This document shows, one piece after another, positions 18,251 through 49,091 of a stretch of DNA of 64,000 bases. Source of the DNA: a virus (lineage: Duplodnaviria > Caudoviricetes). The notes beneath the pieces are model-generated. The model worked only from the letters and a program-made list of their open reading frames with translations, made no database searches and was not told the origin of the DNA. Within the stretch, counting starts at the first letter, position 1, and every line of letters starts with the position of its first letter. The stretch lies in IMG/VR virus record IMGVR_UViG_3300036766_002286; one strand, 5' to 3'. The translations under genes and the position numbers were made by a program.

Positions 18251-18699
18251 TACGATTCAAACAAAGCATTCCAATTTTGATGTGCCCAGTCTTTTACGTG
18301 CGCAACAACCGTAGCTGTATCAATATTTTCAATAATTTCAGGCCTTCGCTCCGAGCTATTTGGGAAAAAGTCACCACCATAAAGCCATAGTTCGGCTTCA
18401 CCACTGCGAGCAATGTTTACTACAATATTTGTTTCTATCCGAACCCAATATAATTTGATTCCGCCCTCAGGCGTTGGATAGATATGAGGGCACGTGAGAT
18501 ATTCAGGGTCAACATTTTCTCGCCATAATACTATCAACATGTCCGAAGCTCTACGTATGGCGGCTTCTTCAACTTTTTCTCCACTAGGTGTCCAACCTTT
18601 CTCGAGTTTGCTAGTCGCCAACAACGAGTCCACGGCACTTCTAAAATACGCATCATTACAAATACCATCTGGCATTTTGAGTTGATACAGGTTTTCCAT
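18247..18699 (-). CDS. MENLY-family protein (PxIYPxxEGGIxLxW domain)
   Basis: GW...AIRRASD...PHIYPTPEGGIKLYW; leaderless promoter TTGCTT-N16-CACAAT-N7-ATG. Confidence 0.75.
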   Translation of the reverse strand: MENLYQLKMPDGICNDAYFRSAVDSLLATSKLEKGWTPSGEKVEEAAIRRASDMLIVLWRENVDPEYLTCPHIYPTPEGGIKLYWVRIETNIVVNIARSGEAELWLYGGDFFPNSSERRPEIIENIDTATVVAHVKDWAHQNWNALFESY

Positions 18700-18802
18700 G
18701 GTTTATATTGTGTCACCTCCCGTCTAATAAGCAACATTATAAATCCTCATAATACAGCTATAAAAGTCTTAAAGTTCCCGAGACAAGTCTCAATTTTTAT
18801 TT

Positions 18803-19297: not shown

Positions 19298-19705
19298 TTA
19301 GTATTGTATATCTAATACTTTCACGTGTCCAATAATAGTAGCCATATCGACGTCTTTCAAAGTTTCATCAGGACCACTTAAATTGCCACCATCATTTTCA
19401 TAAATAACTATATTGGCTTTACCATCGTTCTCAATTTCTATTCCAAAATCTCCTTTTACCAGATCCCAACTGATATAAGCACTGCCATCCCCACCTCTAT
19501 AAATACAAGGAGCCGGTAGTTTTTCACGAAATAATCCTATAAGTATATCTCCTGTGCGACAAACAGCCTGCTCTTCGATTCTATCACTCGTCCCAGCCCA
19601 GTTCGAACTTGATTTGGACAGCCTCATTAAAGCATCTGCGGCTTGTTTGAAGTGTTTATCATTACAAATATCATCAGGCAGTTCAAACGAATATAAATTT
19701 TCCAT
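19298..19705 (-). CDS. MENLY-family protein
   Basis: Paralog motifs; promoter TTGCCG-N16-CACAAT-N7-ATG. Confidence 0.75.
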   Translation of the reverse strand: MENLYSFELPDDICNDKHFKQAADALMRLSKSSSNWAGTSDRIEEQAVCRTGDILIGLFREKLPAPCIYRGGDGSAYISWDLVKGDFGIEIENDGKANIVIYENDGGNLSGPDETLKDVDMATIIGHVKVLDIQY

Positions 19706-19818
19706 GATTTATATTGTGCCAAATGCTTTCCTGCCGGCAACAACTTAAATCATTATATAATAGGTTTAATACTCCACCTAAATCTATCATATTTATTATA
19801 GAAACAGCCTCTATATAA

Positions 19819-20223: not shown

Positions 20224-20628
20224 TTAATCTTTGTTTGTTCCAAGTTTTAGATATGTAACAATATCAACAATAGTAGCGTTTTCTACATATATAGCAGCTT
20301 CCTCTCCCCAAGGTTTTTCACCCATAGCGTGCATACACGCCGCACCATTAGTGTCAATATTCACCGAAATATCTCGCCCGCCATGTTCCCACTCTAATTG
20401 TATTCCTCCTTCAGGCGTAGGATAGACAAGTGGCGGGGCAACATTTTCGCGTAGTAATTCTATTAAAATGTCTCCGGCCCGTCTAACGGCTATTTCAAAG
20501 GGTGTTTCTCCATCTTCATGCCAGCTTTCATCAATCTTGGATATTTCTATTAGGTTCGTAGCCGCTGCACGAAATTTCTTGTCCGCATAAAGGGCCTTCG
20601 GCACATCAAAAGTGAAGAGGGGTTTCAT
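20224..20628 (-). CDS. MENLY-family protein
   Basis: PPLVYPTPEGGIQLEW; promoter TTGCAC-N16-CACAAT-N7-ATG. Confidence 0.75.
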   Translation of the reverse strand: MKPLFTFDVPKALYADKKFRAAATNLIEISKIDESWHEDGETPFEIAVRRAGDILIELLRENVAPPLVYPTPEGGIQLEWEHGGRDISVNIDTNGAACMHAMGEKPWGEEAAIYVENATIVDIVTYLKLGTNKD

Positions 20629-20708
20629 ACTGTATATTGTGTCAAACAGTTCTCAATGTGCAATCAAGTATTTTTATTACTTTTAATTCAATGTAAATGT
20701 ATGTTCTC

Positions 20709-21166: not shown

Positions 21167-22678
21167 CCGTTCCTTTTGAGTGTTGTTTAGTGACACTTTA
21201 GGAGCTCGATCTTGCGACCGAACAGTTCTTGTTTTATACAACCATTGCTGGTTGCTTTAAGATTGACGCTTCATCGGCCACAACGTTTATATCTGACATT
21301 AAAGATACTTTAGTTTTATGTAGGCCTCCGCGTCCAGTCCCCGAGCTACTCTCGGAGGTATTGCATAAACCCAACTTTGCTAGGTTTATTGCTGCGTTCA
21401 GATCTCTATCGATGATAAGCCCGCAGTTATTACATTTGAACTCTCGTTCAGAGAGAAGTAGTTTGGCTTTCACTACCTCACACCGTGAACAAGTCTTACT
21501 TGACGGATACCACTGGTCGGCTTGTATTAAAACAGATCCGTACCAGGCAGTCTTATATTTTAATTGCCGTATAAATTCCCCCCAGCCGGCATCATATATT
21601 GCTTTGCTTAAATGATGATTCTGGGCCATACCAAGAATGCCCAATGTCTCAACTACGATAACGTCACAAGTTTTGGCTAGAAATGTGGTGCTTTTGTTAA
21701 TGACATCCCGGCGGACGTTTGCGATATTGCGCTGAACTCTGGTTACTCTGCTGTTAGCTTTTTTCCAGCGTGCGGAAGGTTCCACTCCGGGAGCTGGACC
21801 TATCTTGCGGGCGGCCTTGCGTTGTGCTCGGCACAGTGACTGTTCTGATTGTTTAGTATGTTTAGGATTAGGAACGTCTAGTATAGTATTCCCATTACAG
21901 TCGGCTACCTTATATAGGGTTGTCACACCGAGGTCAACCCCAACTATTTTCACAGGGAGACGCGTCGGGGTGATCGCCGCTTCTACTTCTACCGTGAAGC
22001 TGACAAACCATTTCCCGCCCGAGCGCGAAAGAGTTGCACTCAAAATACGGGCAGTAGCTGCCTCAATTCTCCGAGCCAGCTTACGGGTACTTTCGTGAGT
22101 GCGGATCTGACCTATAACTGGAAGAAGTACATGGTGACGATCGACAGTCACCCCAATGTTCCCTGTCGTGAACCGAACACTCTCATGTTGGCCGCGTTTA
22201 TGGTACTTAGGAAACCCGACTGATTTACCTTTACGTTTTCCTGTTAAAGAATCGCGATGGTTCGATAACCCCAAAGATAATCGTTTAGTCCCATCCGAGT
22301 AGGCTTCTTTAGAGTTCTCTCTCCACCATGGAGCAACAATGTCTTTCTTTGCGTTCCAATGCTTTCTTAAATCATAATGTGAGCTTGGAAAATAGGGTGT
22401 CAGTTCATTTTCCGCCACACCGGAGGCGATCTCAGCTTTTCTTTGATCGCGAGCGGCTTTCACACAGCTGAGAAGATAATTGTAAGCATATCTGGAGGCT
22501 CCCACATGAGAATGAAATGCTCGCTCCTGAGTAGGGGATGGATCTAGTGCGAACTTGTAAGCTCGATGGATTACACTCATAAAGGTTTAACTTGTTCAAG
22601 TGCCAGCTTTGTCAGCCCAATCAGATGTAACATATACCTATTATCGTTACCAGATGTCATTAAATGACACTTGAGGCC
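21167..22678 (-). mobile_element. non-autonomous IS607-family element (tnpA internally deleted, tnpB intact)
   Basis: Right end ...GGAACGG; GG at the left end; cct(c/a)aagtgtca repeated at both ends; remnant SDWADKAG/ALEQVKPL overlapping the tnpB start. Confidence 0.65.
21234..22580 (-). CDS. tnpB: RNA-guided endonuclease TnpB (IS607 type)
   Basis: RAYKFALDP N-terminus; RuvC motifs GVDLG / VVETL / DRDLNAAINL; CxxC..CxxC zinc finger. Confidence 0.95.
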   Translation of the reverse strand: MSVIHRAYKFALDPSPTQERAFHSHVGASRYAYNYLLSCVKAARDQRKAEIASGVAENELTPYFPSSHYDLRKHWNAKKDIVAPWWRENSKEAYSDGTKRLSLGLSNHRDSLTGKRKGKSVGFPKYHKRGQHESVRFTTGNIGVTVDRHHVLLPVIGQIRTHESTRKLARRIEAATARILSATLSRSGGKWFVSFTVEVEAAITPTRLPVKIVGVDLGVTTLYKVADCNGNTILDVPNPKHTKQSEQSLCRAQRKAARKIGPAPGVEPSARWKKANSRVTRVQRNIANVRRDVINKSTTFLAKTCDVIVVETLGILGMAQNHHLSKAIYDAGWGEFIRQLKYKTAWYGSVLIQADQWYPSSKTCSRCEVVKAKLLLSEREFKCNNCGLIIDRDLNAAINLAKLGLCNTSESSSGTGRGGLHKTKVSLMSDINVVADEASILKQPAMVV

Positions 22679-25924: not shown

Positions 25925-25952
25925 ATATCAGAACACTGCTAGAATACCTTAG

Positions 25953-26026
25953 TGGCGGAGGTAGGATTTGAACCTACGACCTCCGGGTTATGAGCCCGAC
26001 GAGCTGCCAAACTGCTCCACTCCGCA
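25953..26026 (-). tRNA. initiator tRNA-fMet (CAT), CCA not encoded
   Basis: Cloverleaf TGCGGAG...CTCCGCCA; anticodon arm CGGG-CTCATAA-CCCG with three G-C pairs; 1:72 mismatch; T-loop GTTCAAATC. Confidence 0.96.
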
Positions 26027-27609: not shown

Positions 27610-27894
27610 ATGCCTGATAATGACGCTATGATGAACCCGCCTATTGAAAAGTTACTCTCTAAAACAGGCAATTCTAAATTCGCACTTGTTACCTTAGCAG
27701 CCAGGCGCGCTCGCGAAGTGCATTTATATTTTAATCAAATAGGTGGCGGTCTAAGTAACGTAGTTCCGCCTCAAGTTGCATCCATGTCCCGTAAAGCACT
27801 TTCTATCGCCTTTGAAGAGATCGCCGAAGAAAAAATTAAGAGCGTCCCTTTAACAACTCTTGAAGTTACAGAAGCACCTGCATCAGACTCTTAA
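27610..27894 (+). CDS. rpoZ: RNA polymerase omega subunit
   Basis: NPPIEKLL...SKFALVTLAARRARE...YF...KALSIAFEEI, an actinobacterial-type omega. Confidence 0.92.
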   Translation: MPDNDAMMNPPIEKLLSKTGNSKFALVTLAARRAREVHLYFNQIGGGLSNVVPPQVASMSRKALSIAFEEIAEEKIKSVPLTTLEVTEAPASDS

Positions 27895-28216: not shown

Positions 28217-28909
28217 ATGAAAGAAAGAATAAAGTATATCGATGGCCAGGGCAACCCTCAAGAGCTAATAGGCGACCACCCCCAAACATCTATTAGTCTA
28301 TCTAATGTCGCACTCGCCGGCGCAGATTTATCTGGCGCACAGTTGCCAGGAGTTAGCGCATATAACATGGATTTGACGCGTATAAATCTATCCGGAGCAA
28401 ATCTAGCTAATGCGGACTTTTCTATGTCGAAACTCTCTTACGCCAACTTATCCGGAGCCGATTTGTCTTTTGCAGATCTTAGCGGGGCTGATTTGACAAA
28501 CGCTATTCTAACCAACACTAATTTGCGGTTTGCAATTTTAACAGACACAGACCTGTCTGGAGCTATCCTATCCGGAGCTGTTTTAGCAGACGTATCTGCT
28601 CTCCGTGTTAACTTACAAGACACCTATCTAAAACATGCTGATCTATCTCGCGCTTTTCTGCAGGAAGCAGAGCTATCAAATGCTGATTTAACTGACGCAA
28701 ATTTGACTAAAGCAGATCTCAGTGAAGCTAATTTATGTAAGGCCAACTTAACTAACGCTAATCTAACTGACGCTGATTTAGAATTAGCGGCCCTGGTTCA
28801 CACTAATTTAACTGGTGCTAATATAGAGGGCGCAAGTATAGAGCACAGTTTGCGTCAATCGACAATAATGCCAGACGGCACAACACAAGGTAATACTTAT
28901 ACAAAGTAA
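28217..28909 (+). CDS. pentapeptide repeat protein (type I)
   Basis: IKYIDGQGNPQEL head, repeats, TIMPDG tail. Confidence 0.92.
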   Translation: MKERIKYIDGQGNPQELIGDHPQTSISLSNVALAGADLSGAQLPGVSAYNMDLTRINLSGANLANADFSMSKLSYANLSGADLSFADLSGADLTNAILTNTNLRFAILTDTDLSGAILSGAVLADVSALRVNLQDTYLKHADLSRAFLQEAELSNADLTDANLTKADLSEANLCKANLTNANLTDADLELAALVHTNLTGANIEGASIEHSLRQSTIMPDGTTQGNTYTK

Positions 28910-28940
28910 GAACCAATACGGTAATAAGAGGAGAAAACTA

Positions 28941-29645
28941 ATGAGACCAAATGTAAAATACATGGATCGCAACAGTGATCCACAAGAGCTGCAATGGGGA
29001 GAGTCCTGGATAAATATTGATCTCACCCGAGCAGACTTAACCGGCGCCGATTTATCTCTTGGGGAACTGGGAGGAGTACGCATATCCGGAGCCAACCTTA
29101 CTAACGCTAATCTGTCTGGAGCATATCTTGAGGGAGTAGAGTTGATTCGAGCTAGTCTTTACGGTGCAGACTTATCTAATACAAATATTATGAATGGGCA
29201 ACTAGCTTATGCAAATTTATCTAATGCAAACTTGACAAAAGCTTACTTAGGCGGCGCCAACTTGAGCTATGCAAATTTTTCTCATGCAAATTTATCTAAT
29301 ACAGATTTTAAAGAAGCTAAGTTAATTGAAACAAACCTAGAAGCAGTAGATCTCTCTAATGCTGATTTATCGCATGCAGACTTAACTGGAGCAAATTTAA
29401 CAAAAGCACGTATGATTAATACAGACCTAACCTGGTCAAATCTAACAGGATCTAATTTAACTATGGCAACTCTAACTCATGTAAATCTAGCTAATTCAGA
29501 TTTAACTTGTGCGATCCTAGCTGGTACATTATTGGATAACTGTAATTTAAGTGACACAATCACAACTTATGTTGATTTGTTTAATATAAATTTAAGTACA
29601 TGTACGCTCGTCGGCGCTAATGGGTATTATCAGGTATGGAAGTAA
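28941..29645 (+). CDS. pentapeptide repeat protein (type I)
   Basis: RPNVKYMDRNSDPQELQWGESW head plus repeats. Confidence 0.92.
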   Translation: MRPNVKYMDRNSDPQELQWGESWINIDLTRADLTGADLSLGELGGVRISGANLTNANLSGAYLEGVELIRASLYGADLSNTNIMNGQLAYANLSNANLTKAYLGGANLSYANFSHANLSNTDFKEAKLIETNLEAVDLSNADLSHADLTGANLTKARMINTDLTWSNLTGSNLTMATLTHVNLANSDLTCAILAGTLLDNCNLSDTITTYVDLFNINLSTCTLVGANGYYQVWK

Positions 29646-29692: not shown

Positions 29693-29720
29693 TTGCCATA
29701 TTGAAAAATCACAGCACAGT
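29693..29720 (+). promoter_or_regulatory. element-type promoter TTGCCA-N16-CACAGT, 8 nt before the ATG of the NAD operon
   Basis: Matches the recurring consensus; no Shine-Dalgarno before the ATG at 29729. Confidence 0.6.
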
Positions 29721-29728
29721 TAGTATCA

Positions 29729-30439
29729 ATGAGACATGAACCTATAAATAGAAGAGAAGTAATTGGCATTCTCGGCGGTATTGGTCCAGCTGCAACAGCT
29801 CATATATTTTCGCAGTTAATAAAAACTTTTCAAACAAACGGCGCTGTTTTAGATAACGATTTCCCCGCAATTCTTGTTCACAGTCTCAATATACCAGGCA
29901 CCCAGCCAACTGGTGTACATAGTCACCCAGATCTTGTACGTTCATTACAAGCTGCCGTAAGTCAGCTTATTACCTCTGGAGCGACTATTTTGGGAGTTGC
30001 TTGTAATAGTTTGCATGGAAAATTTGCAAACATTGGTATTCCATCTAACATAAAACTTTTAGACATGATACAGCTCACAGTTGATGCGGCTAGAGATCGG
30101 TCGTGGCGAAGAGTTGGAATCTGTGCGTCGCGATCGACTCGGTCCGAGCAGTTGTTTAATAATGCTTTTTCTGAATATGAAATTACTACTATTGATCTTC
30201 CAGAAGAATTGCAATGCGCACTCGACTCAGCAATTTTATCCGTGATGGGCAATAAGGATATTACGAATGCCAGCAATATTTTAAAAACTACTATAGATAC
30301 TCTTTTGCACATGGGAGCAGACGGGGTTATTGTAGGGTGTACCGAACTATCTATGATCGCACCTGTGGATTATAGGGTGCTTGACTCAGCAGAACTTCTT
30401 GTTGCAGCCCTACATTCAAATTCTAGTATAATCAAATGA
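29729..30439 (+). CDS. aspartate/glutamate racemase family protein
   Basis: IGILGGIGPAAT; catalytic Cys pair in ACNSLH and VGCTELS. Confidence 0.9.
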   Translation: MRHEPINRREVIGILGGIGPAATAHIFSQLIKTFQTNGAVLDNDFPAILVHSLNIPGTQPTGVHSHPDLVRSLQAAVSQLITSGATILGVACNSLHGKFANIGIPSNIKLLDMIQLTVDAARDRSWRRVGICASRSTRSEQLFNNAFSEYEITTIDLPEELQCALDSAILSVMGNKDITNASNILKTTIDTLLHMGADGVIVGCTELSMIAPVDYRVLDSAELLVAALHSNSSIIK

Positions 30440-30446
30440 GGTAACT

Positions 30447-31418
30447 ATGCGCTTTATACCATTCACGCACTCTGTCCAGCTGCACCAAGAGCTTTCACAT
30501 GTTCTCAAAAATATACGCGCTCAGCGTAACTTTAATGCCGAAAATGTCCTTATAGAAAAATGTGAGAGGCTTCAAGCCTACTTGTCTGCTTTTAATTTGC
30601 GTGCCCTAGTTGTTGGAGTTTCTGGTGGTATTGATTCTGCAGTTAGTTTAGGTATTGCATCCAACCTTCTTGAAAATGGACTTATAGACCGAGTTGTACC
30701 TGTACTTCTTCCTTTATCTGGAAATCTGGCTGCAACCGGTCAATTGGAGGCAACTACTCGCGGTATCCAAGTTTGTGCTAAATTCGCACTTAAACCCGTC
30801 ATTATTGAACTTGACCCTACTTTTGAAACAACCTGTTCAGCAGTAGAGTCCGCACTACAATTATCAGGAAACCCCTGGGCTCGCGGCCAGCTCACCTCTT
30901 ATATACGCACGCCTGCTTTATATTACACTGCAAGTATTTTATGGGCCAATAAATTACCTGCCGCCGTCCTTGGCACCACCAATAGAGATGAGGGTGCTTA
31001 CCTCGGATTTTTTGGTAAAGCCTCTGACGGTATGGTTGATATTCAGATTTTGAGCGATCTTCATAAATCAGAAGTATACGCTCTGGCTAAACAGCTAGAT
31101 ATTCCAGAAACAATAATTAATGCTATACCTACTGGTGATATGTACGATGGACGTATCGATGAAGAGGTTTTTGGTGCTCCATACGATTTTGTTGAATTGT
31201 TTTTAGCTATGCGTTGTATGACACCCATCAATCAATCTGTTATAATCAGCTCACTTGGCTCTCTTGCTCGCGAACAGTTTGATAAGTATTACTCAGCGCT
31301 TCAAGGTCTTCATAATTACAATGCACATAAATATCTCGTAGGCTCCCCCGCTATCCATTTAGATGTACTTGCCGGCCACGTCCCCGGTGGTTGGCGTTAT
31401 GCGGTGTGGTATGCTTAA
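30447..31418 (+). CDS. nadE: NAD+ synthetase (NH3-dependent type, no glutaminase domain)
   Basis: VVGVSGGIDSAV PP-loop, GTTNRDE, GFFGKASDG, DLHKSEVYALA, PTGD..DGRIDEE. Confidence 0.9.
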   Translation: MRFIPFTHSVQLHQELSHVLKNIRAQRNFNAENVLIEKCERLQAYLSAFNLRALVVGVSGGIDSAVSLGIASNLLENGLIDRVVPVLLPLSGNLAATGQLEATTRGIQVCAKFALKPVIIELDPTFETTCSAVESALQLSGNPWARGQLTSYIRTPALYYTASILWANKLPAAVLGTTNRDEGAYLGFFGKASDGMVDIQILSDLHKSEVYALAKQLDIPETIINAIPTGDMYDGRIDEEVFGAPYDFVELFLAMRCMTPINQSVIISSLGSLAREQFDKYYSALQGLHNYNAHKYLVGSPAIHLDVLAGHVPGGWRYAVWYA

Positions 31419-32157
31419 TAACATTCCAGAAGTTTTGATTAAGCACCCAGTCCCCGTTCAAGAATTTGATATAGATACAGCAAATTCTATTATTCAGCCC
31501 ACATCTACTATTTTACCAGGCACAACTGATGTTTTACTTATTAAAGGTCTTCTTGCTATAAACGAGGTGCAAGCTCTACTTTCAGCTGTCCCAGATTCTA
31601 AATTTGTAACAGCTGACTCTCACGGTGTTGCTGGAAACAACCAGAAAACAGGTTCCTATAGAGCTTCACTTTGGGCTCCAAATTTTGCTAGTATTTTATT
31701 TGAACGTATTAGACCTTTTATCTCAAATCCCCTAATTGTGAACCCTTTCACACCAACAGACGCTCATGACACTATCGCTTGGTCACCCGTTAGCATAAAT
31801 CCGCTACTTAGATTAATTCACTATAAATCAAGCGGAACATTAATCCCTCACTACGATGGTCCGGTTTTTTTCCAAGACGGTACTCGTACTTTATACTCAG
31901 TTATAATAGGCCTCACCTCTGATTCATCTGGAGCCACCAGGTTTCTTTCAGACCCAAAAAGAGATTTGCCTTTTACTCGCCGCAGTCACGGCGATCAAGA
32001 CAGGATACCAGAACCAAATGATGTCGATGCAATCATTGTCCTAGAGCCAACCGACGCCTTAATATTTCCTCATCGTATTTTACACGACACAGCTCCTGTA
32101 AATCTAAACAAAACTATTTTACGTACAGATGTCATTTATACGCGAATTTCATTATGA
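31411..32157 (+). CDS. 2OG-Fe(II) oxygenase superfamily protein
   Basis: HYD...GATRF...HRILHD...KTILRTD (HxD...H...R); ATG at 31411 overlaps the nadE stop. Confidence 0.85.
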   Translation: MLNNIPEVLIKHPVPVQEFDIDTANSIIQPTSTILPGTTDVLLIKGLLAINEVQALLSAVPDSKFVTADSHGVAGNNQKTGSYRASLWAPNFASILFERIRPFISNPLIVNPFTPTDAHDTIAWSPVSINPLLRLIHYKSSGTLIPHYDGPVFFQDGTRTLYSVIIGLTSDSSGATRFLSDPKRDLPFTRRSHGDQDRIPEPNDVDAIIVLEPTDALIFPHRILHDTAPVNLNKTILRTDVIYTRISL

Positions 32158-33848
32158 GTATAAATACGACTACCAGTTCCCAAGCCGATATTGATACTTA
32201 TCTAGCCTTAGACCCAATGTATAGTGCATGTGCTAAACATTACGGATACAATATGCTCGGCCCTGCCGGTTTTATTACTCATCCAGACCTACACGCTAGA
32301 GCCACAATCACTGATCATGCTTGGCTAAGCACTCCATTATTTAAGGTATCTGCTAATTTCGACACATCTTCATCCCGAACTAAAAAGCAAGCCGTACTTT
32401 TAACAACTGGAGCATTTTCTCCTCTTCATACAGGACACATTGAAATGATGGATTGTGCCAAAGTCGCTCTGGAAGCCTCAGACATAGAGGTTGTGGGTGG
32501 TTTTATTTCTCCTTCTCATGATGCCTATGTAACAAGAAAGGCAAAAGGTGACGCACAAATGCATGCAGAAATCAGAGTTGCCCTATGTGAAGCAGCTGTT
32601 GCTTCGTCCAGTTGGCTAGCAATAGATACCTGGGAAGCTCGCTATGTTCCAGACGAATGTAATTTTACTGATGTTTTTCGCCACCTTAAGGGTATTTTAG
32701 ATCATAATTTCGGTAAAGACGCAATTGAAGTTTGGTATGTATTTGGTAGTGATAATATCATGTTCGCAACCGTTTTCAAAGAGTCTGGTAATGCTGTTGT
32801 TGTACACAGAGGAGGCACAGAAAATCCAAGCAACACTCTGAAAGCATTGAATATGGATAGCACCAGAGTTATCGTATCAGACATTACTACTACAGCATCT
32901 TCCACCGAAATTCGTCGCGGTGATTTTACATTACTCCCATCCCCTATACGAGACACTTATCCGCGTTTTGTTGATCCAGCCCCCTTTCCATCTGGTGTTA
33001 TAATACTTCGCGATGATCTCACATATGCAACCAAACACTGGGCAACATCTTCAGTATTTGATAAAGCTCTTCAAACATTTTCCACAAATGTACAAACCGC
33101 ACTTATTACTGCTTACGATAGTAATTTTTCAATTGTGCTAGCACAAGTTGCAGACCAACTAACCGCGGCTTCATTCGCACTTTTTGATACGAAAACTATC
33201 TCTTTAGATGTGTATTTTAAAGGCACCGCACATTTTGAGATATCTAGAAGTTTTGGCTGTTCAGACGGTCAAGTGCGCACGTCCGGCATCATAGCTCGTC
33301 CAGGCTCAGCTTCTATTGCCGAGCAAATTTCACAAATTGCTCCCGGAGATTATTGTATTGTTGATGATGATATTGCCTCTGGAACCACTATTAAACAGTG
33401 CATTGAGATGCTGCCAGTTCACGTAAAGCACACAGGACAATATGCTATGGTAGAACATATCGGACTTCTTCGATCAAAAATTATTGATGTTTGTGACCTC
33501 AGAGACTTTCTTCTCGGCACCTTACATGGAGGCCTAGCAGTAATTCTCCCCAGCGGGTTTCACGGCCGTGCTCCTTATATGCTCCCGTACGTTTCATTAG
33601 TTTCTCGTGCTAGCATTCCTCCCACAAAACATCTACAATGCGCTCTCGATTTATGGATTGCAAACGAAGAATTTTTTCGCACCATACCGGTCACTTTGAA
33701 GCTTATCGATACTCCACAGTATACTCGCGATTTACTCACTTCTGCTGGCTTTACGCAAGATATCACACTTGCTGATATATGTGCCTATCATATTAAAATA
33801 CTTAGTCACAGTGTTTCCGCCCAAACCAAGTTTGCCCCGCGCCAGTAA
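32154..33848 (+). CDS. NMN/NaMN adenylyltransferase-like domain fused to a type I phosphoribosyltransferase-like domain
   Basis: TGAFSPLHTGH (HxGH), ISPSHDAYV, IDTWE, FGSDN, SSTEIR; PRPP-binding loop IVDDDIASGTT. Confidence 0.82.
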   Translation: MSINTTTSSQADIDTYLALDPMYSACAKHYGYNMLGPAGFITHPDLHARATITDHAWLSTPLFKVSANFDTSSSRTKKQAVLLTTGAFSPLHTGHIEMMDCAKVALEASDIEVVGGFISPSHDAYVTRKAKGDAQMHAEIRVALCEAAVASSSWLAIDTWEARYVPDECNFTDVFRHLKGILDHNFGKDAIEVWYVFGSDNIMFATVFKESGNAVVVHRGGTENPSNTLKALNMDSTRVIVSDITTTASSTEIRRGDFTLLPSPIRDTYPRFVDPAPFPSGVIILRDDLTYATKHWATSSVFDKALQTFSTNVQTALITAYDSNFSIVLAQVADQLTAASFALFDTKTISLDVYFKGTAHFEISRSFGCSDGQVRTSGIIARPGSASIAEQISQIAPGDYCIVDDDIASGTTIKQCIEMLPVHVKHTGQYAMVEHIGLLRSKIIDVCDLRDFLLGTLHGGLAVILPSGFHGRAPYMLPYVSLVSRASIPPTKHLQCALDLWIANEEFFRTIPVTLKLIDTPQYTRDLLTSAGFTQDITLADICAYHIKILSHSVSAQTKFAPRQ

Positions 33849-33871: not shown

Positions 33872-34636
33872 CTATTGTACTATTTTGCTGTCATAGTATG
33901 TGCCGTCTTGACCGCAGAGTTCTATATATCTATGATAAGCACCTTGGTTGTTTGTAGTAACGTTCAATCTATTAGACCCGCTCACGTCGCATCCCAACAT
34001 CGTCGCTTCCGTTAGGTCCGCCCCTCTAAAATCTACATCTCTTAGATCAGACTTACTAAAGTCCGCTCCAGCTAATACACATCCAACCATACTAGCTCCT
34101 CTTAAATTGCTTCCTCTAATATTAGAAACAAGCATATAAGCACCGTCCAAGTTAGCATATTGTAAATTAACATCGTCTAAACAAGCAGCTATCAAGCCAG
34201 CACAGAATTTATCAATTCCAGCCATATTTATTTCACTCATATCAGCGCCCGTAAAATTTGCTCCATTTGCGCAAGCTCTAGTCAAGTTTGCGCACTTTAG
34301 ATTACTTTTTGGAAACTGGGCTTCTTCTAGTATAGCTCCAGATAAATTAGCACGCCTTAAGTTAGCGCTTGCAAAAATAGCTTTTCCCATTGCAGATCTA
34401 ACCATAGTGGCAGAAGCCAAATCAGCAAAACTAAAATCTGCACCCGTAAGCTTAGCTTCGTCTAAATGTGTTCCAATTAGAATAGCGCCTTTCAAATTCG
34501 CTCCATTCAAATTCGCACCACGTAAATCTAAGCCGGACAAGTCTATATTGGTTAGATCCCGCCCGCTCATCTCAATTCCACAAGCCACGTTTTCCAGCAC
34601 CTCTTGTCGGCTTATTTTCGCACTCATCGAAGTCAC
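33872..34636 (-). CDS. pentapeptide repeat protein (type II)
   Basis: KISRQEVL head, repeats, loop GIDKFC. Confidence 0.92.
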   Translation of the reverse strand: MTSMSAKISRQEVLENVACGIEMSGRDLTNIDLSGLDLRGANLNGANLKGAILIGTHLDEAKLTGADFSFADLASATMVRSAMGKAIFASANLRRANLSGAILEEAQFPKSNLKCANLTRACANGANFTGADMSEINMAGIDKFCAGLIAACLDDVNLQYANLDGAYMLVSNIRGSNLRGASMVGCVLAGADFSKSDLRDVDFRGADLTEATMLGCDVSGSNRLNVTTNNQGAYHRYIELCGQDGTYYDSKIVQ

Positions 34637-36846: not shown

Positions 36847-37551
36847 TCAAATTATCTCTCCCATTGGCCCTAACTGGATCGTCTCCAGGCCTGTGCCACC
36901 CAAGGTTGCCTGTGTAAAGTTAGCACCGCGCATAAGATTATTTTCTGGAAGTATAGCGTAACTCAAATCAGCTCCGTAAAAGTCTGCTTCTGTTAAATTT
37001 GCGCAAGTAAAATTACAATTATTCAGTTTCGCGCCTGAAAATACAGCCCTATACAAATCTACTCCTAACATATTTGCATCTAGAAGATTCGCCCCAGTAA
37101 ACTTCGCCCATCTCAAATCTGCACTATAAGATGAAAGTCCCGCCAGCATCGCATTACTCAGATTTGCATCCGCAAATGATGCAAATCGAGCCTCACTCCT
37201 AGTTAAATTAACAAAACTCATGTTAGCACCATTCAAGATACCACAAACCAAATTTACTCCAGCCATGTTAGCTCGAACCATAGTTGCGCATCTGAAGTTA
37301 GCCCCCTCCAGGTTAGCTCGAACCAATATCGTTTCAAATAGGTTTGCGCCTATAAAATTTGCCCCATGGCAATTTGCAAAGCTTAAATTAGCGTAACTAA
37401 GATTTGTCTCAATCATTTGTGTATTATGGAGCTCTAAATAAGACATGTTAATATGAGACAAATCTAAACCGCTTAAATTTTTCTGCGCCATTGATTTGCC
37501 AGTTTTAATATTATCTATGACATCTTCTCGAGTTAGTTTTTTCTCCAACAT
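36847..37551 (-). CDS. pentapeptide repeat protein (type II)
   Basis: KLTREDVI head, repeats, loop GLSSYS. Confidence 0.92.
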   Translation of the reverse strand: MLEKKLTREDVIDNIKTGKSMAQKNLSGLDLSHINMSYLELHNTQMIETNLSYANLSFANCHGANFIGANLFETILVRANLEGANFRCATMVRANMAGVNLVCGILNGANMSFVNLTRSEARFASFADANLSNAMLAGLSSYSADLRWAKFTGANLLDANMLGVDLYRAVFSGAKLNNCNFTCANLTEADFYGADLSYAILPENNLMRGANFTQATLGGTGLETIQLGPMGEII

Positions 37552-43899: not shown

Positions 43900-44907
43900 T
43901 CAAGATGATTGCTTGACTAAAAATGCATTTGAAATAGCTTTAAAACATCCACGCCCATCTAGCTCATCAAACATTTTACCATTAGTTTCATGCCAAACAA
44001 TCCCTTCAGCTAAACGTTCTGGGTTGATTAAAGATTTAATACCATCGGATAACGCGATCGTAGCTTCAACTGTTTCTGGTAGTTCTAGATCGAATACTGG
44101 AGCAGCCATTTTCAAAAATTTCTCTGGCCATTTTGCTCTTGGGACAAGTTCTCTGTTTTCCCACAGTGCGAATGCAGCAAACCTGTGGCCTGTTACTTTA
44201 AGGATATTTGAATGTATACCCACCCCGTACATTTCGCCTTGAAGGGCCCAGCCGGGCGCAAGAGTAGCAAGAATGTCTAACTCTTTTGCAACTAACCATT
44301 GAGTCGTCTCATGGCTAGCATCAAGCTCCCAGTTACGCGTGCATACTCTCAGCACTCCTGCATCATTAATGTATGTAACAGATGAGCCATCTATTTTTTC
44401 AGTAGCTATCCAGCTACCATTGTCGTGAAGTACATCAAACACTTCTACTAGGTTTTGTACTCGTTCAGCATTAGTTTTGGGAGCAAACTGACTAGCAAAT
44501 ACTCCAGCACATAAACCGTTTAGTTCAGCTGGGATTGGTGGCTCGTATTTGAAAATACCTAACACAGCACTCATATCTGGGCACGTGTCGTTTAATTCTG
44601 GAAAATCTGCTACAGACATAACTAAACCTTGACTGCATACTTTACGTAATTTCATAGTTTTTAGTACATGGCCAAGAGCACCATTTACAGTTTTTACATT
44701 CCTGGTTGCTAGAAAAGCAAATCTCGGATCACTGATAGGCAAAAAGCTGTCTATTTCAAAATATACGCACGCATCTCCTACAGCAAATTCACCTTTGCGC
44801 ACAACCACATTCCATCCACGCACCTGCACAATTTCTATAGCATCCGCATTAGCAATAGGCTTTACTGCCAAAACCCGCTCTATTGTTACTAATCGTCGTT
44901 CGCTCAT
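43900..44907 (-). CDS. ATP-dependent RNA ligase, Rnl2/DRB0094 family
   Basis: N-terminal IANADAIE...VYFEIDSFLP; motif I TEKIDGSS; QGEMYG; EGIV; FKAIS. Confidence 0.9.
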   Translation of the reverse strand: MSERRLVTIERVLAVKPIANADAIEIVQVRGWNVVVRKGEFAVGDACVYFEIDSFLPISDPRFAFLATRNVKTVNGALGHVLKTMKLRKVCSQGLVMSVADFPELNDTCPDMSAVLGIFKYEPPIPAELNGLCAGVFASQFAPKTNAERVQNLVEVFDVLHDNGSWIATEKIDGSSVTYINDAGVLRVCTRNWELDASHETTQWLVAKELDILATLAPGWALQGEMYGVGIHSNILKVTGHRFAAFALWENRELVPRAKWPEKFLKMAAPVFDLELPETVEATIALSDGIKSLINPERLAEGIVWHETNGKMFDELDGRGCFKAISNAFLVKQSS

Positions 44908-45616: not shown

Positions 45617-46306
45617 TTAGTATATTTTTCCAGAAGATCTGCATCCATCGGTCATAGTAGTGTCCCCAGACTGTGCACCCTTAAGTTTTGTTTTATGAAG
45701 GTTTGCGCATGTGAAATTTGCCCAACGAAGGTCAGCTCCCTCGAAGTTTGCTGCCATTAGGTTTGCTCCCTTAAATTGGGTGGTGTGACATGATGCATTT
45801 TTAAAATTCGCAGAAACTAGGTCAGCGCCATCGAATTTGGCGTGATCACACCTAGCGCCGCTAAGATCTGCTCTCTTAATGGTTGCATCTTTTAAGTTAG
45901 CATACCTCAAGTCACAACGAACAAGTATAGCATCAGTTAAATCAGTTTTTATTAGTTCAGCAACATTCAGTTTAGCACCTGTCAAATTAGCTGATCTTAA
46001 GATAGCTCCCCACAGATTCGCATTCCACATATCGCAATCAGTTAAATTAGCACCTGTAAAATCAACTTCACCAATACCAGCCTTTTTAAGGTTCGCACCG
46101 CACAACGTAGCATTTTTTAAGTTAACATAATAAAGATCCGTGTCACTAAGATTCGCACCTCTAAGATTCGCACCGCTCAAATCAGTACCTTCAAAAAAAC
46201 TAGCACTATGCAAATCAATATTTTCCCAATTATCTCCCCAATGTAGACATGCGTTCCTGCCATTACGATCAATATACTTAATATCGACTTGTTTATAATC
46301 AGACAT
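45617..46306 (-). CDS. pentapeptide repeat protein (type I)
   Basis: IKYIDRNGRNACLHWGDNW head plus repeats. Confidence 0.92.
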   Translation of the reverse strand: MSDYKQVDIKYIDRNGRNACLHWGDNWENIDLHSASFFEGTDLSGANLRGANLSDTDLYYVNLKNATLCGANLKKAGIGEVDFTGANLTDCDMWNANLWGAILRSANLTGAKLNVAELIKTDLTDAILVRCDLRYANLKDATIKRADLSGARCDHAKFDGADLVSANFKNASCHTTQFKGANLMAANFEGADLRWANFTCANLHKTKLKGAQSGDTTMTDGCRSSGKIY

Positions 46307-47000: not shown

Positions 47001-48437
47001 CTATGCAGAGATTACAGGTTCATCCACGTTGTTTATCTTAGTATGATGTACTGGAAGTCTTACCACAAATTCGCTGCCCACTCCGATTTTTGAACTAAAG
47101 GTGATCGTACCTCCATGTTCTTCAACGATGGCATGCACCAGTGATAGTCCAATCCCAAATCCCGGAATTGATGCTTTAGTTGCACTACTTGCTCGAAAAA
47201 AACGCTTAAACATATTAGGAAATTCAGATTCCGCAATCCCAATTCCGGTATCTGCGACTTTTATTTCAACAAAATTACCAGATCCGCGGTCTCGATGTGC
47301 AGTTATTGTTACTTTACCGTCTTTCGGAGTAAATTTAACAGCGTTAGATATTAGATTAACAAATAGCCGCTCAATTTGACTTCCGTCTCCATCCACAAAG
47401 AGCTCGCCTCCAGTAACCGGCAGTAATAACATTATGTCGATATCGTTTTTAGTAGCGTCTAGTTCTATAGATTTGACTATATTACCCAATAGTTTGTTAA
47501 TATCTACCGGCTTAACGTCCACTAATCCCGCGCCAGCATCGGTTTTTGATAGCTGCATCATATTTTCTATTAAACCTTGCAATCTAAGAGCATTTCGCTG
47601 TACAACCGTAAGGGAGCTTACTAGCTTAGTGTTAAGTTCTGGATCAATTTCTTCAAGTATCATCTCCATATAGGCAATAATAGAAGATAAAGGAGATCTG
47701 AGCTCGTGGTTCATGCTTTCAATAAAATCATTTTTAGATCTATTAATATCTTCCAAGTGACCTATTTGTGCGTCGTTTTCTGTAGCTAGTAGACTTTGTT
47801 TTAATAACGATGCATGTATACAAACACTTGCCGACTCACTGGCTAACTTTCGCACAAGAGAAACCTCGACCATATTCCAGGTGCGTATATCGCGCGCCAT
47901 TATTAAAAGCAGTCCTAATATTTGAGATCCGTCTCCTACTGGGACAAGTAGCCAACTATTAGCGTGGTCATCTATAACCTTTTCAAATCCGCCCACGCGC
48001 TCTACACCAGGACAGGTGAAAAGTGTTTTATCTGAAATAAGAACACCATCTTGTTCCCACAGAGTAGTGGCTAAGGCAGTTAGTTGTACAGCATATTTGT
48101 CGAACAACGTCTCGTCTGGTAACATCCCGTGATTGTTACGGTACTGTTTAAACATTTTCGGCAGTGTTCCTGATACAAATGAGTAACCTATTACATCAGC
48201 CGACAGTGTTCGCCCCAAACTGTCCACAACTACTTCGGCAATTTTTTCTGGATCCATTAAATTTTTAAACTCAGCAGTGATTGTTTGGGTTGTATTCTCT
48301 AGCCACTTATTTTCAGATTGTATAAGCCGATCAGCTTCTCTCTCTTTTTCTAGTTTTATACGAAGTTGTTTAAAATGTCTGAACCATATAATGAGTAACG
48401 CTCCTCCAGTAAGAATTATCAGAGACGTTGCTATCAA
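47001..48437 (-). CDS. sensor histidine kinase (TM-GAF-HisKA-HATPase), no response regulator in window
   Basis: HELRSPL, NLISNAVKF, DTGIGI, FKRFFR, GFGIGL. Confidence 0.93.
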   Translation of the reverse strand: MIATSLIILTGGALLIIWFRHFKQLRIKLEKEREADRLIQSENKWLENTTQTITAEFKNLMDPEKIAEVVVDSLGRTLSADVIGYSFVSGTLPKMFKQYRNNHGMLPDETLFDKYAVQLTALATTLWEQDGVLISDKTLFTCPGVERVGGFEKVIDDHANSWLLVPVGDGSQILGLLLIMARDIRTWNMVEVSLVRKLASESASVCIHASLLKQSLLATENDAQIGHLEDINRSKNDFIESMNHELRSPLSSIIAYMEMILEEIDPELNTKLVSSLTVVQRNALRLQGLIENMMQLSKTDAGAGLVDVKPVDINKLLGNIVKSIELDATKNDIDIMLLLPVTGGELFVDGDGSQIERLFVNLISNAVKFTPKDGKVTITAHRDRGSGNFVEIKVADTGIGIAESEFPNMFKRFFRASSATKASIPGFGIGLSLVHAIVEEHGGTITFSSKIGVGSEFVVRLPVHHTKINNVDEPVISA

Positions 48438-48710: not shown

Positions 48711-49091
48711 TCAGCTATCTTCGTCATATTCGCTAATAGTGATTCGATATTCTCTATTCCAAGGCTTCTCGGTAATAAAGTATCCTAATCGGCCGTAAAC
48801 ACGCCAGCCTTCAACAATGAAAGCATACTCATCATCATCGCCATCAATATAAGTCCAAATTTTATGCTTTTGCTGATCACTTATGAAATCCAGTTCGCGC
48901 TCACTGCACTCAAATAGGGTTCCATCCCAGGCAGCATTTTTGTCAATATGGTTTACGATCGGTTTAAATTTTTCAACCCACTCAGCTTCTGTCATGTCAC
49001 AGATTACTGGTTTCTTCTCTTTATTTTTGACTTTTGCTGGCTTTTTCTTAGCACTTTTCGTAACCGCCGGCACTGATTTTTTCTTTTTCAT
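48711..49091 (-). CDS. hypothetical protein, paralog of 54607 and 56533
   Basis: W.E.F.P..NHI...FE...WTY...R.GYF.T..PW. Confidence 0.7.
   Translation of the reverse strand: MKKKKSVPAVTKSAKKKPAKVKNKEKKPVICDMTEAEWVEKFKPIVNHIDKNAAWDGTLFECSERELDFISDQQKHKIWTYIDGDDDEYAFIVEGWRVYGRLGYFITEKPWNREYRITISEYDEDS

What the first reader, a model, noticed from the sequence alone, without database searches (positions are those of the whole stretch)
29693..33848. Four-gene NAD module (racemase, NadE, 2OG-Fe(II) oxygenase, NMNAT::PRTase) under the element's own promoter: candidate new NAD+ reconstitution or NAD-analogue pathway
Seen: four tightly coupled genes (7-nt gap, then two overlaps) with intact catalytic motifs, preceded by the element's TTG-N16-CACAGT promoter. 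Established: phages counter NAD-depleting defences (Thoeris, DSR, SIR2-HerA, short pAgo) with NARP1 (ADPR-PP synthetase plus Namat) or NARP2 (Nampt plus Nmnat). This gene set matches neither. Inference: PRTase, then adenylyltransferase, then NadE would be a complete deamidated (Preiss-Handler-like) route to NAD+, but with a type I PRTase fold in place of the usual type II NAPRT. The oxygenase and racemase have no role in known NAD synthesis. They may recover a modified precursor (for example by N-demethylation), or the glutaminase-less NadE may ligate a (D-)amino acid to make an NADase-resistant or inhibitory analogue. The adenylyltransferase motifs (ISPxHDAY, IDxWE) resemble eukaryote-type NMNAT more than bacterial NadD.
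Basis: partly seen in the sequence, partly recalled or inferred. Interest (0 to 1): 0.9.

Follow-up and report, generated by a model that had tools for sequence, protein, structure and literature searches.

The report
Conserved NAD module with oxygenase partner
Four tightly packed genes on a giant sediment element carry a widespread but undescribed NAD-making gene set (NAD synthetase, iron oxygenase, adenylyltransferase fused to a phosphoribosyltransferase-like domain) that is often fused into one protein elsewhere and swaps its oxygenase for a radical-SAM enzyme in anaerobes, which points to an unknown chemical step in NAD synthesis.

Summary
Four co-oriented genes lie at 29729-33848: an Asp/Glu-racemase-like gene, an NH3-type NadE, a 2OG-Fe(II) oxygenase and an NMNAT::PRT-like fusion. 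They are separated by a 7-nt gap and two overlaps, and their catalytic motifs are intact.

The decisive evidence is comparative.
- NadE lies next to the fusion in 43 of 52 related loci, from Streptomyces, myxobacteria, Obscuribacterales, Armatimonadota, many CPR lineages and IMG/VR huge phages.
- The oxygenase is present in 34 of those 43. It is fused to NadE in about 17 loci, and six loci have all four domains in one ORF.
- All 8 complete loci without the oxygenase have a radical-SAM gene instead. Six of these are RaSEA-like.
- The racemase is accessory: 9 loci of the 52, plus 4 in a second set.
- In some 1-Mb genomes the module holds the only NMNAT and NadE. In others it sits beside a full canonical Preiss-Handler set.

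It matches none of NARP1, NARP2 or NARP3, and I found no description of it.

Best reading: an NAD+-forming module with an extra oxidative C-N cleavage step tied to NadE, with an amino acid as amide-nitrogen donor. That mechanism is inferred only.

The scan had noted this same stretch in an overlapping window. It had not noted it on other DNA.

The parts
29693..29731 (+). Promoter-like element with a short or absent leader: TTG-N19-CACAGT-N8-ATG
   Evidence: Sequence read. The motif class is enriched in the window, 9 occurrences against about 1.4 expected. It is not detected by the sigma-70 consensus scan. Function is untested.
29729..30439 (+). Asp/Glu-racemase superfamily gene of the aspartate/cysteate-racemase type. 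It is an accessory member of the module.
   Evidence: PF01177, 80.8 bits. CuyB-like at 1e-37 and TIGR00035 at 82.8 bits, both below their cut-offs. Both catalytic Cys are conserved. Present in 9 of 52 fusion-seeded loci and in 4 radical-SAM-seeded loci (L054 and L066 may repeat L040 and L039).
30447..31418 (+). NH3-type NAD synthetase (NadE) with no glutaminase domain and a conserved C-terminal extension
   Evidence: PF02540, 107.9 bits. TIGR00552, 107 bits against a cut-off of 63.65. PP-loop SGGIDS is present. 16-sequence alignment A5. The best solved relative is 3fiu_A, E 1e-18.
31399..32157 (+). 2OG-Fe(II) oxygenase of the P4H-like 2OG-FeII_Oxy_3 type. The start codon is 31399 or 31411; the longest ORF starts at 31363.
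   Evidence: Orthologues pass the PF13640 cut-off. H-x-D, H and R are invariant in 31 sequences. The profile hits prolyl-4-hydroxylases at E 1e-3. Atlas feature and structure neighbours are PF13640 clusters.
32154..32984 (+). NMN/NaMN adenylyltransferase domain (residues 1-277 of the fusion), of eukaryote-like type
   Evidence: PF01467 and TIGR00482. The model has pLDDT 90.5. Foldseek best hits are fungal, fly, plant and human NMNATs at E 1e-10, ahead of NadD at E 1e-6. H92, H95, S250 and R254 are invariant.
32985..33848 (+). Divergent type I PRT-like domain (residues 278-564) with a family-specific C-terminal extension
   Evidence: PRPP loop VDDDIASGTT. Profile A2 hits APRT/HPRT loops at E 3e-3. 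The model has pLDDT 92.8. Foldseek against the PDB finds nothing. By VIA-align, most of the top 25 matches are type I PRTs or PRPP synthetases, at Z 5-7.1. One Atlas sister cluster carries PF00156 in 14% of its members. The family has 1,189 clusters at 50% identity.

Best explanation
The stretch is one operon. It carries a conserved, horizontally mobile NAD+ biosynthesis module as cargo on a 616-kb sediment element that is probably a huge phage.

The core is three genes, which many organisms fuse into one polypeptide: a glutaminase-less NadE, an Fe(II)/2OG oxygenase, and an NMNAT fused to a divergent type I PRT-like domain. The racemase is an optional fourth part.

Proposed course:
1. The PRT-like domain joins a pyridine carboxylate to PRPP. 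This is inferred.
2. The NMNAT domain adenylates the mononucleotide. The family assignment is well supported.
3. NadE activates the carboxylate by adenylation. The family assignment is well supported.
4. The amide nitrogen comes from an amine or amino-acid donor, not from free ammonia or glutamine. The C-N bond of that donor is broken oxidatively by the oxygenase. In anaerobes a RaSEA-like radical-SAM enzyme does this instead. This step is inference.
5. Where present, the racemase would supply a D-amino acid of the aspartate type as donor. This is inference.

The product is NAD+ itself.

My odds:
- The genes form one conserved NAD-metabolic module: about 0.9.
- The end product is NAD+: about 0.6.
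- The oxygenase and the radical-SAM enzymes are isofunctional: about 0.6.
- The amine-donor plus oxidative-cleavage mechanism as stated: about 0.3.
For: Linkage:
- NadE lies next to the fusion in 43 of 52 loci, across at least 8 phyla and IMG/VR contigs.
- The oxygenase is in 34 of those 43.
- NadE::oxygenase is a single ORF in about 17 loci. NadE::Oxy::NMNAT::PRT is a single ORF of 1114-1591 aa in 6 loci.
- Further architectures exist: NadE-NMNAT-PRT, Oxy-NMNAT-PRT and the four-domain form.

Alternation of the partner enzyme:
- All 8 complete loci that lack the oxygenase have a radical-SAM gene beside NadE. Six are RaSEA-like (TIGR01210, E 5e-54). Two belong to another radical-SAM family.
- In the reverse direction, 14 of 18 close metagenomic relatives of that radical-SAM enzyme sit next to the fusion or NadE. 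None of the 62 distant relatives does.
- One locus, L062, has both enzymes.
- Hosts fit oxygen use. Streptomyces and myxobacteria carry the oxygenase. Microgenomates CPR and gut Clostridia carry the radical-SAM enzyme. Lifestyles are from general knowledge.

Chemistry precedent:
- RaSEA removes the lysine moiety from the preQ0-Lys adduct, so lysine is the nitrogen donor where NH4+, Asn and Gln are not used (PMC11298593).
- PurC/PurB and PHM/PAL are textbook parallels for making a primary carboxamide by way of an amino-acid adduct.

Amino-acid enzymes recur as neighbours:
- Asp-type racemase in 13 loci (9 fusion-seeded, 4 radical-SAM-seeded).
- A DAP-decarboxylase-like gene in L013.
- A cyanophycin-synthetase-like ATP-grasp gene in L018.

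Link to NAD:
- NrtR-like regulators are adjacent in 6 loci.
- In G002, G006 and G008 the fusion is the only NMNAT-like gene; in G009 it is the only strong one (38.5 bits), beside two hits under 20 bits, one of which (C7:58548) lies between that genome's pncB and pncA.
- In G002 and G006 the module's NadE is the only NadE, and no NAPRT or QPRT is found.

I found no description in the papers searched.
Against: - No biochemical data exist. The mechanism rests on gene context and analogy.
- L035 is a 1.2-Mb Saccharibacteria genome. It carries NadD, a glutamine-dependent NadE, PncA and PncB in the same island as the module.
- The huge phages also carry a second NadE and a NAPRT-family gene. L046 carries NadV and NadM-Nudix.
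- A module that differs only in its nitrogen donor would be largely redundant in those genomes. That favours a different precursor or a different product.
- NadE's active-site motifs look canonical.
- The RaSEA-like hit is below the family cut-off (183.6 against 212 bits). Radical-SAM relatives can perform other chemistry.
- The NadE tree forces only about one swap between oxygenase and radical-SAM enzyme. The alternation could therefore partly reflect shared ancestry.
- The PRT fold assignment is weak, at Z 5-7.
- The sole-copy argument relies on MAGs that may be incomplete.
Confidence: 0.35

Rival explanations
1. Salvage of an unusual precursor. The module converts a pyridine compound other than nicotinate or nicotinamide into NAD+. 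The compound could be an N- or C-substituted or partly reduced pyridine carboxylate. Dedicated PRT-like, NMNAT and NadE activities carry the modified intermediates. The oxygenase, or the radical-SAM enzyme in anaerobes, removes or oxidises the extra group.
For: This explains why the module coexists with a complete canonical PncA/PncB/NadD/NadE set in a 1.2-Mb genome (L035). It also explains coexistence with NadV/NadM or PncB in phage records. It fits the alternation between oxygenase and radical-SAM enzyme. An MFS transporter and a MarR regulator flank the Streptomyces copy. The PRT-like domain is distinct from NAPRT and most resembles orotate- and purine-type PRTs.
Against: No candidate precursor can be named from the data. 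The most frequent fusion is NadE::oxygenase, which ties the oxygenase to the amidation step and not to the base-supplying PRT. It does not explain the recurring amino-acid enzymes such as the racemase, the ATP-grasp and the decarboxylase-like genes. In G002 and G006 the module seems to be the only route, so it would have to use a common precursor there.
Confidence: 0.2
2. Synthesis of a modified dinucleotide. The module makes a hydroxylated or amino-acid-bearing NAD analogue that serves as a signal, an inhibitor or an NADase-resistant cofactor.
For: The module is an accessory, sporadically distributed and mobile. It occurs on a Streptomyces plasmid and in huge phages. It coexists with canonical NAD genes. 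The oxygenase has several invariant Arg residues that could bind an anionic nucleotide.
Against: In G002, G006 and G008 the fusion is the only NMNAT-like gene (in G009 the only strong one). In G002 and G006 the module NadE is the only NadE. The enzymes must therefore be able to give ordinary NAD+. NrtR-like regulators of NAD homeostasis are adjacent in 6 loci. There are no export, immunity or target genes conserved with the module.
Confidence: 0.12
3. Ordinary Preiss-Handler or NAD-reconstitution genes of a jumbo phage. NadE and NMNAT do the known reactions. The oxygenase, the racemase and the PRT-like domain are unrelated passengers or regulatory add-ons.
For: Jumbo phages are known to carry pncB-nadD-nadE clusters and other NAD routes (PMC11662467). 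NadE and NMNAT motifs are canonical. An unverified note on the same element reports pncB/pncA about 87 kb upstream.
Against: Passengers would not be fused in-frame to NadE and NMNAT in dozens of unrelated lineages. They would also not be replaced by a radical-SAM gene whenever absent. The PRT-like domain is found at the C-terminus of an NMNAT-containing protein in most of the 150 best-scoring representatives (by length and match position), out of 1,189 family clusters.
Confidence: 0.08
4. ADP-ribose recycling, in the manner of NARP1. The PRT-like domain resembles PRPP synthetase as much as it resembles PRTs. It would act on ADPR or an activated ADPR, so that NAD+ is rebuilt from NADase products.
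For: VIA-align also lists PRPP synthetases (3mbi Z 5.8, 4twb Z 5.4, 1u9y Z 5.2). ADPR-responsive NrtR-like genes and Nudix genes are neighbours. The module occurs in huge phages.
Against: There is no Nampt/Namat-like partner in the module. This scheme gives no role to NadE or the oxygenase. The domain is a single PRT-like core, not the double domain of PRPP synthetase or Adps.
Confidence: 0.05

Closest known systems
Preiss-Handler pathway (PncB, NadD, NadE), including the pncB-nadD-nadE clusters reported in jumbo phages (PMC11662467)
   Same: Both have an adenylyltransferase of the NMNAT/NadD superfamily and an ATP-dependent NadE amidation. Both are NAD-related and occur on very large phage genomes.
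   Different: The module has no type II NAPRT. Instead a divergent type I PRT-like domain is fused to the NMNAT. The NMNAT is of the eukaryotic structural type. NadE has an obligatory oxygenase or radical-SAM partner. The module coexists with canonical PncB, NadD and NadE in some genomes.
[quoted passage not shown]
   Same: In both, a NadE synthetase core is physically coupled to a second catalytic domain or a clustered subunit.
   Different: The partner here is a 2OG-Fe(II) oxygenase or a radical-SAM enzyme, not a glutaminase. That survey mentions no oxygenase partner (0 occurrences).
ArcS-RaSEA in archaeosine synthesis
   Same: A RaSEA-family radical-SAM enzyme is the alternative partner in oxygenase-less loci. 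The proposed logic is the same: an amino acid adds as nitrogen donor, then radical cleavage of its C-N bond leaves an -NH2 group.
   Different: The substrate would be a pyridine nucleotide, not tRNA-bound preQ0. There is no ArcS homologue. The hit is below the RaSEA cut-off (183.6 against 212 bits). The window itself has the oxygenase, not the radical-SAM enzyme.
Phage NAD+ reconstitution pathways NARP1 (Adps+Namat), NARP2 (Nampt+Nmnat) and NARP3 (PnuC+NadR)
   Same: All are NAD-forming genes on phage genomes. All could plausibly offset NAD-depleting defences. An Nmnat activity is shared with NARP2 and NARP3.
   Different: The module has no Nampt/Namat, PRPS-like Adps, PnuC or NadR kinase domain. 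It contains NadE and an oxygenase, which none of the three has. It is mostly found in cellular genomes.
Francisella NMN synthetase route (NadE* amidates NaMN, NadM then adenylates)
   Same: The best solved sequence relative of the window's NadE is 3fiu_A. From memory only, I take that entry to be the Francisella enzyme. The order of amidation and adenylation could therefore be reversed here as well.
   Different: There is no evidence on substrate preference. The Francisella route has no oxygenase or PRT-like partner.

Membership tests
NAD synthetase (NadE, N-type ATP pyrophosphatase) | PP-loop SGGxDS and a match to the NadE synthetase domain model above its cut-off | tested here: met
   SGGIDS is present. 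TIGR00552 scores 107 bits against a cut-off of 63.65. PF02540 scores 107.9 bits.
Glutamine-dependent NadE | Fused or clustered nitrilase-like glutaminase domain | tested here: not met
   The protein is 323 aa with no CN-hydrolase hit. No such gene lies in the operon.
NMN/NaMN adenylyltransferase | HxGH and ISSTxxR motifs, and a nucleotidyltransferase fold closest to solved NMNATs | tested here: met
   H92, H95, S250 and R254 are invariant. PF01467 scores 29.4 bits against a cut-off of 21. The top 50 Foldseek hits are all NMNAT or NadD. TIGR00482 is below its cut-off (45.4 against 112.45 bits).
2OG-Fe(II) oxygenase (PF13640, P4H-like) | HxD...H iron triad and a 2OG-binding Arg on a DSBH fold | tested here: met
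   H139, D141, H213 and R230 (numbering of window:31435-32154) are invariant in 31 sequences. Orthologues score 29-34 bits against a cut-off of 27. The window protein itself gives no Pfam hit. The Atlas model's neighbours are PF13640 clusters.
Type I phosphoribosyltransferase | PRPP-binding loop (hydrophobic run, two acidic residues, then xxxTGxT) on the PRT core fold | tested here: inconclusive
   The motif YCIVDDDIASGTT is present and D405/D406/G410 are invariant. The profile hits APRT and HPRT only at E 3e-3. Foldseek finds nothing. VIA-align gives Z 5-7.1 to many PRTs over 83-141 residues. The window protein has no PF00156 hit.
Type II NAPRT/Nampt (PF04095), as required for Preiss-Handler, NARP1 (Namat) or NARP2 | NAPRTase-family domain | tested here: not met
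   None of the four proteins has a PF04095 hit. No Nampt-like match was found in the window.
NARP3 (PnuC + NadR) | PnuC transporter and a NadR-type ribosylnicotinamide kinase domain | tested here: not met
   Neither family is hit in the four proteins beyond a 15.8-bit NadR NMNAT-domain match. The definition comes from PMC13464706.
Aspartate/glutamate racemase superfamily | PF01177 fold with two catalytic cysteines | tested here: met
   80.8 bits against a cut-off of 31. C92 and C204 are conserved in all genuine racemase rows. The specific subfamily models stay below their cut-offs in the window protein: asp_race 82.8 against 93.1 bits, and CuyB 129.9 against 190 bits.
RaSEA (TIGR01210), the partner in oxygenase-less relatives and not in the window | Match above the equivalog cut-off and association with ArcS | tested here: not met
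   183.6 bits against a cut-off of 212.15. The neighbours are NadE and the fusion, not ArcS. It is a paralogous family that may work like RaSEA.

The most novel reading that the evidence does not exclude
NAD's amide nitrogen can be installed in a third way, besides free ammonia and glutamine. NadE couples an amino acid or amine to the activated nicotinate nucleotide. A dedicated Fe/2OG oxygenase, or a RaSEA-like radical-SAM enzyme in anaerobes, then cuts the donor off oxidatively. Huge phages carry this module to rebuild NAD+ independently of host nitrogen metabolism.
Probability: 0.3. Interest if true: 0.9.

Novelty: new variant of a known kind. Interest (0 to 1): 0.8.

Why it matters
NAD biosynthesis is regarded as fully mapped. 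Its enzymes are drug targets and have become a central battlefield between phages and bacterial defences.

This module is widespread. The PRT-like domain alone forms 1,189 clusters at 50% identity. RefSeq leaves the fusion as 'hypothetical protein'. The module links NadE to an oxygen-dependent enzyme, or to a radical enzyme, in a way that no known pathway explains.

Working it out could reveal:
- a new enzymatic step or a new nitrogen donor;
- how CPR bacteria with minimal genomes make NAD;
- a further phage NAD-reconstitution route.

It would also give names to hundreds of unannotated genes.

Tried and rejected
- DNA and protein searches of the phage and plasmid collections with the stretch or the fusion found nothing.
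- No whole genome is held for the window.
- Foldseek of the C-terminal domain against the PDB gave no match at E <= 1e-3.
- Complex prediction of the L010 NadE with its RaSEA-like neighbour returned 'no answer', score 0.00. This counts neither for nor against binding.
- The look-up of sequencing runs listed one sediment DNA run, which is probably the source. No RNA holder was listed.
- The profile of the roughly 290-aa protein coupled to the radical-SAM gene hit nothing solved. It gave only faint methyltransferase Pfam hits.
- Literature searches for a NadE-oxygenase or NadE-radical-SAM link found nothing. One search failed on a syntax rule.
- Standalone or split PRT-like homologues (L134, L135) turned out to be split versions of the same module and added no clue.
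- I considered that the oxygenase replaces NadB or HAAO in a de novo route. I rejected this because no NadA- or NadC-like partner is conserved with the module.
- I considered that the window is a small bacterial genome. This was not settled. Related complete IMG/VR records with terminal repeats argue for a huge phage.

Full report
**What is there**

Positions 29729-33848 hold four + strand ORFs of 236, 323, at most 264 and 564 aa. They are separated by a 7-nt gap, an 8- to 20-nt overlap and an ATGA overlap.

- The first is an Asp/Glu-racemase superfamily protein: PF01177, 80.8 bits. It is closest to the cysteate and aspartate racemase models but below their cut-offs. Both catalytic cysteines are conserved.
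- The second is a NadE with no glutaminase domain. TIGR00552 scores 107 bits against a cut-off of 63.65, and the PP-loop SGGIDS is present.
- The third has no Pfam hit itself. Its orthologues pass the 2OG-FeII_Oxy_3 cut-off. The HxD...H...R set is invariant in 31 sequences. A profile finds prolyl-4-hydroxylases. Its Atlas model's neighbours are PF13640 clusters.
- The fourth is an NMNAT fused to a domain carrying a PRPP-loop motif.

The full-length model has pLDDT 90.5. Its N-terminal half matches fungal, fly, plant and human NMNATs (E about 1e-10) ahead of bacterial NadD (E about 1e-6).

The C-terminal domain, modelled alone, has pLDDT 92.8.
- It has no Foldseek match in the PDB.
- By VIA-align, most of its best 25 matches are type I PRTs and PRPP synthetases, at a modest Z of 5-7.1.
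- A profile touches the APRT and HPRT PRPP loops at E 3e-3.

I call it PRT-like, not a PRT.

That pattern class recurs 9 times in the window against about 1.4 expected. It does not fit the sigma-70 consensus.

**Setting**

- The contig is 616,293 bp and comes from a sediment metagenome.
- The window is full of small ORFs and pentapeptide-repeat genes. It also has an rpoZ-like gene, RtcB, an RNA ligase, methyltransferases and IS605-type transposases.
- Nothing around the four genes is shared with any related locus. The four genes therefore behave as a transferable cassette.

**Comparative evidence, the core of this report**

The fusion has 119 homologues at 25-39% identity. Its C-terminal domain family counts 1,189 clusters at 50% identity.

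I fetched 52 loci: 2 assemblies, 39 named genomes and 11 IMG/VR contigs.
- NadE lies beside the fusion in 43.
- The oxygenase is present in 34.
- The racemase is present in 9.
- NadE and the oxygenase are one ORF in about 17 loci.
- All four domains are one ORF of 1114-1591 aa in L007, L012, L016, L026, L034 and L041.
- Other combinations also exist: NadE-NMNAT-PRT, Oxy-NMNAT-PRT and NMNAT-PRT-GNAT.

Hosts are:
- Streptomyces, including a 497-kb plasmid on which RefSeq names the three genes 'NAD(+) synthase', '2OG-Fe(II) oxygenase' and 'hypothetical protein';
- myxobacteria, Obscuribacterales, Armatimonadota, Gaiellaceae and proteobacterial MAGs;
- many CPR lineages.

Five IMG/VR huge-phage records of 277-465 kb were searched. 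Two have terminal repeats and four have CheckV completeness of 90-100%. Each carries the fusion, plus an adjacent module NadE-oxygenase pair lying a few kb to about 14 kb from it (roughly 4, 6, 6, 13 and 13 kb by the coordinates). Four of the five also carry a second NadE and a NAPRT-family gene; G015, the 60%-complete provirus record, shows neither.

**The oxygenase has an anaerobic counterpart**

Nine loci have NadE but no oxygenase. Eight of them have a radical-SAM gene next to NadE. The ninth, L003, is cut by its contig end.
- Six of the radical-SAM genes are RaSEA-like: TIGR01210, E 5e-54, 183.6 bits against a cut-off of 212.
- Two gut Clostridia MAGs have a different small radical-SAM gene that overlaps nadE.

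A metagenome scan seeded with the RaSEA-like protein gave 80 loci.
- 14 of the 18 close relatives (32-57% identity) sit beside the fusion or NadE.
- None of the 62 distant relatives does.
- One locus, L062, has both the radical-SAM gene and the oxygenase.

On a quick NadE tree the radical-SAM type is mostly one clade. Well-supported branches force only about one swap. The second radical-SAM family is nested inside that clade, which implies a second replacement.

An O2-dependent enzyme in aerobes and a radical-SAM enzyme in anaerobes at the same place in an operon is the classical signature of isofunctional enzymes (general knowledge: HemF/HemN, AcsF/BchE).

**What the module makes**

Evidence for NAD metabolism and for ordinary NAD+:
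- NrtR-like regulators are adjacent in six loci.
- In G002, G006 and G008 the fusion is the only NMNAT-like gene; in G009 it is the only strong hit, beside two under 20 bits, one of them between that genome's pncB and pncA.
- In G002 and G006 the module NadE is the only NadE, and no NAPRT or QPRT is found.
- These are MAGs of about 1 Mb, so absence is not proof.

Evidence against plain redundancy:
- L035, a 1.2-Mb Saccharibacteria genome, places the module in one island with NadD, a glutamine-dependent NadE, NrtR, PncA, PncB and a Nudix gene.
- L046 places it with NadM-Nudix and a NadV-like gene.
- The huge phages also have a canonical pair.

The module is therefore not simply a stand-in for PncB/NadD/NadE.

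**Mechanism**

RaSEA finishes archaeosine by removing the lysine that ArcS added to preQ0. Lysine is thus the nitrogen donor where NH4+, Asn and Gln are not used (PMC11298593). A 2OG oxygenase can give the same net N-dealkylation by hydroxylating the carbon next to nitrogen (established chemistry of AlkB/JmjC-type enzymes; PHM/PAL follows the same logic).

Three facts point the same way:
- the partner enzyme is always tied to a glutaminase-less NadE and is most often fused to it;
- Asp-type racemases, a cyanophycin-synthetase-like ATP-grasp gene and a DAP-decarboxylase-like gene recur nearby;
- PurC/PurB is a textbook precedent for making a carboxamide by way of an aspartate adduct.

I therefore favour this course. 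NadE activates the nicotinate nucleotide, an amino acid supplies the nitrogen, and the oxygenase or the radical-SAM enzyme cleaves the donor. A close variant is that the partner frees ammonia from the amino acid for NadE, as a glutaminase would.

This is inference, at about 0.3. The main rival, at 0.2, is salvage of an unusual pyridine precursor. It explains better why the module coexists with canonical genes. The NAD-analogue, passenger and ADPR-recycling readings are less likely, for the reasons given under rival explanations.

**Comparison with what is known**

- Jumbo phages with pncB-nadD-nadE clusters and NR salvage are published (PMC11662467).
- NARP1 and NARP2 and NARP3 = PnuC+NadR (PMC13464706) are published. 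The module matches none of them.
- The NADS family survey does not mention an oxygenase partner (PMC3376133).
- The Aravind survey of viral NAD systems mentions neither NadE nor 2OG enzymes.
- Searches combining NadE, 2OG or radical SAM found nothing.
- The library covers open-access papers only, so a prior description elsewhere cannot be excluded.

**Verdict**

The stretch is a real functional module, not a chance neighbourhood. It is widespread and undescribed, and its key step is unknown. I rate it a new variant of a known kind (an NAD biosynthetic route), with a realistic chance of new enzymology. Interest 0.8.

Noticed in passing
L020:8639-9511 (-), L055:5114-5986, L057:5113-5982, L058:2791-3702, L064:2527-3390, L063:7035-7970, L061:2374-3231, L065:352-1257: A protein of about 290 aa of no known family is translationally coupled to the RaSEA-like radical-SAM gene in 12 loci. 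Its motifs are LDxCPGxAPK and GNHIIDDL, with faint methyltransferase-like Pfam hits at E 0.008-0.09. These are loci that lack the racemase. It may be another accessory part of the anaerobic version.
   Followed up: partly
L035:1-11451 (Saccharibacteria MAG, 698-kb contig): A complete NAD island in a 1.2-Mb genome: NadD, glutamine-dependent NadE, NrtR-like, racemase, NadE::oxygenase, NMNAT::PRT-like, a histidine-phosphatase-like gene, PncA, PncB and a Nudix gene.
   Followed up: yes
L046:2074-8996 (IMG/VR contig, 95.7 kb): A NadM-Nudix-like gene, a NadV-type PRT (PRK09198, 548 bits), NadE, the fusion, a 202-aa unknown and the RaSEA-like radical-SAM gene all lie on one strand. This is a NARP2-like pair next to the module.
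   Followed up: partly
window 28217-29645, 33872-34636, 36847-37551, 45617-46306, 4709-5359: Stand-alone pentapeptide-repeat genes flank the operon on both sides and recur through the window. Earlier notes report dozens more on the same contig.
   Followed up: no
window 27610-27894: A lone rpoZ-like gene (PF01192, 39.4 bits) about 1.8 kb upstream of the operon, without its usual neighbours.
   Followed up: no
window 18697-18734, 19703-19740, 20626-20663, 48725-48762, 61953-61990: A recurring TTG-N17-19-CAC(A/T)(A/G)T motif ends 7-8 nt before an ATG. This suggests leaderless or very short-leader transcripts on this element.
   Followed up: partly
window 52391-53575, 43900-44907, 47001-48437, 21234-22580, 25952-26026: RtcB-type and a second RNA ligase, a histidine kinase, an IS605/TnpB-type transposase and a lone tRNA-Met are scattered among the small ORFs.
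   Followed up: no
P0131 (705 aa), P0119 (616 aa), Atlas row 1: The PRT-like domain also occurs fused to a C-terminal GNAT acetyltransferase. In Gottesmanbacteria-type proteins it occurs with a HAD (Hydrolase_3) domain in place of the NMNAT.
   Followed up: no
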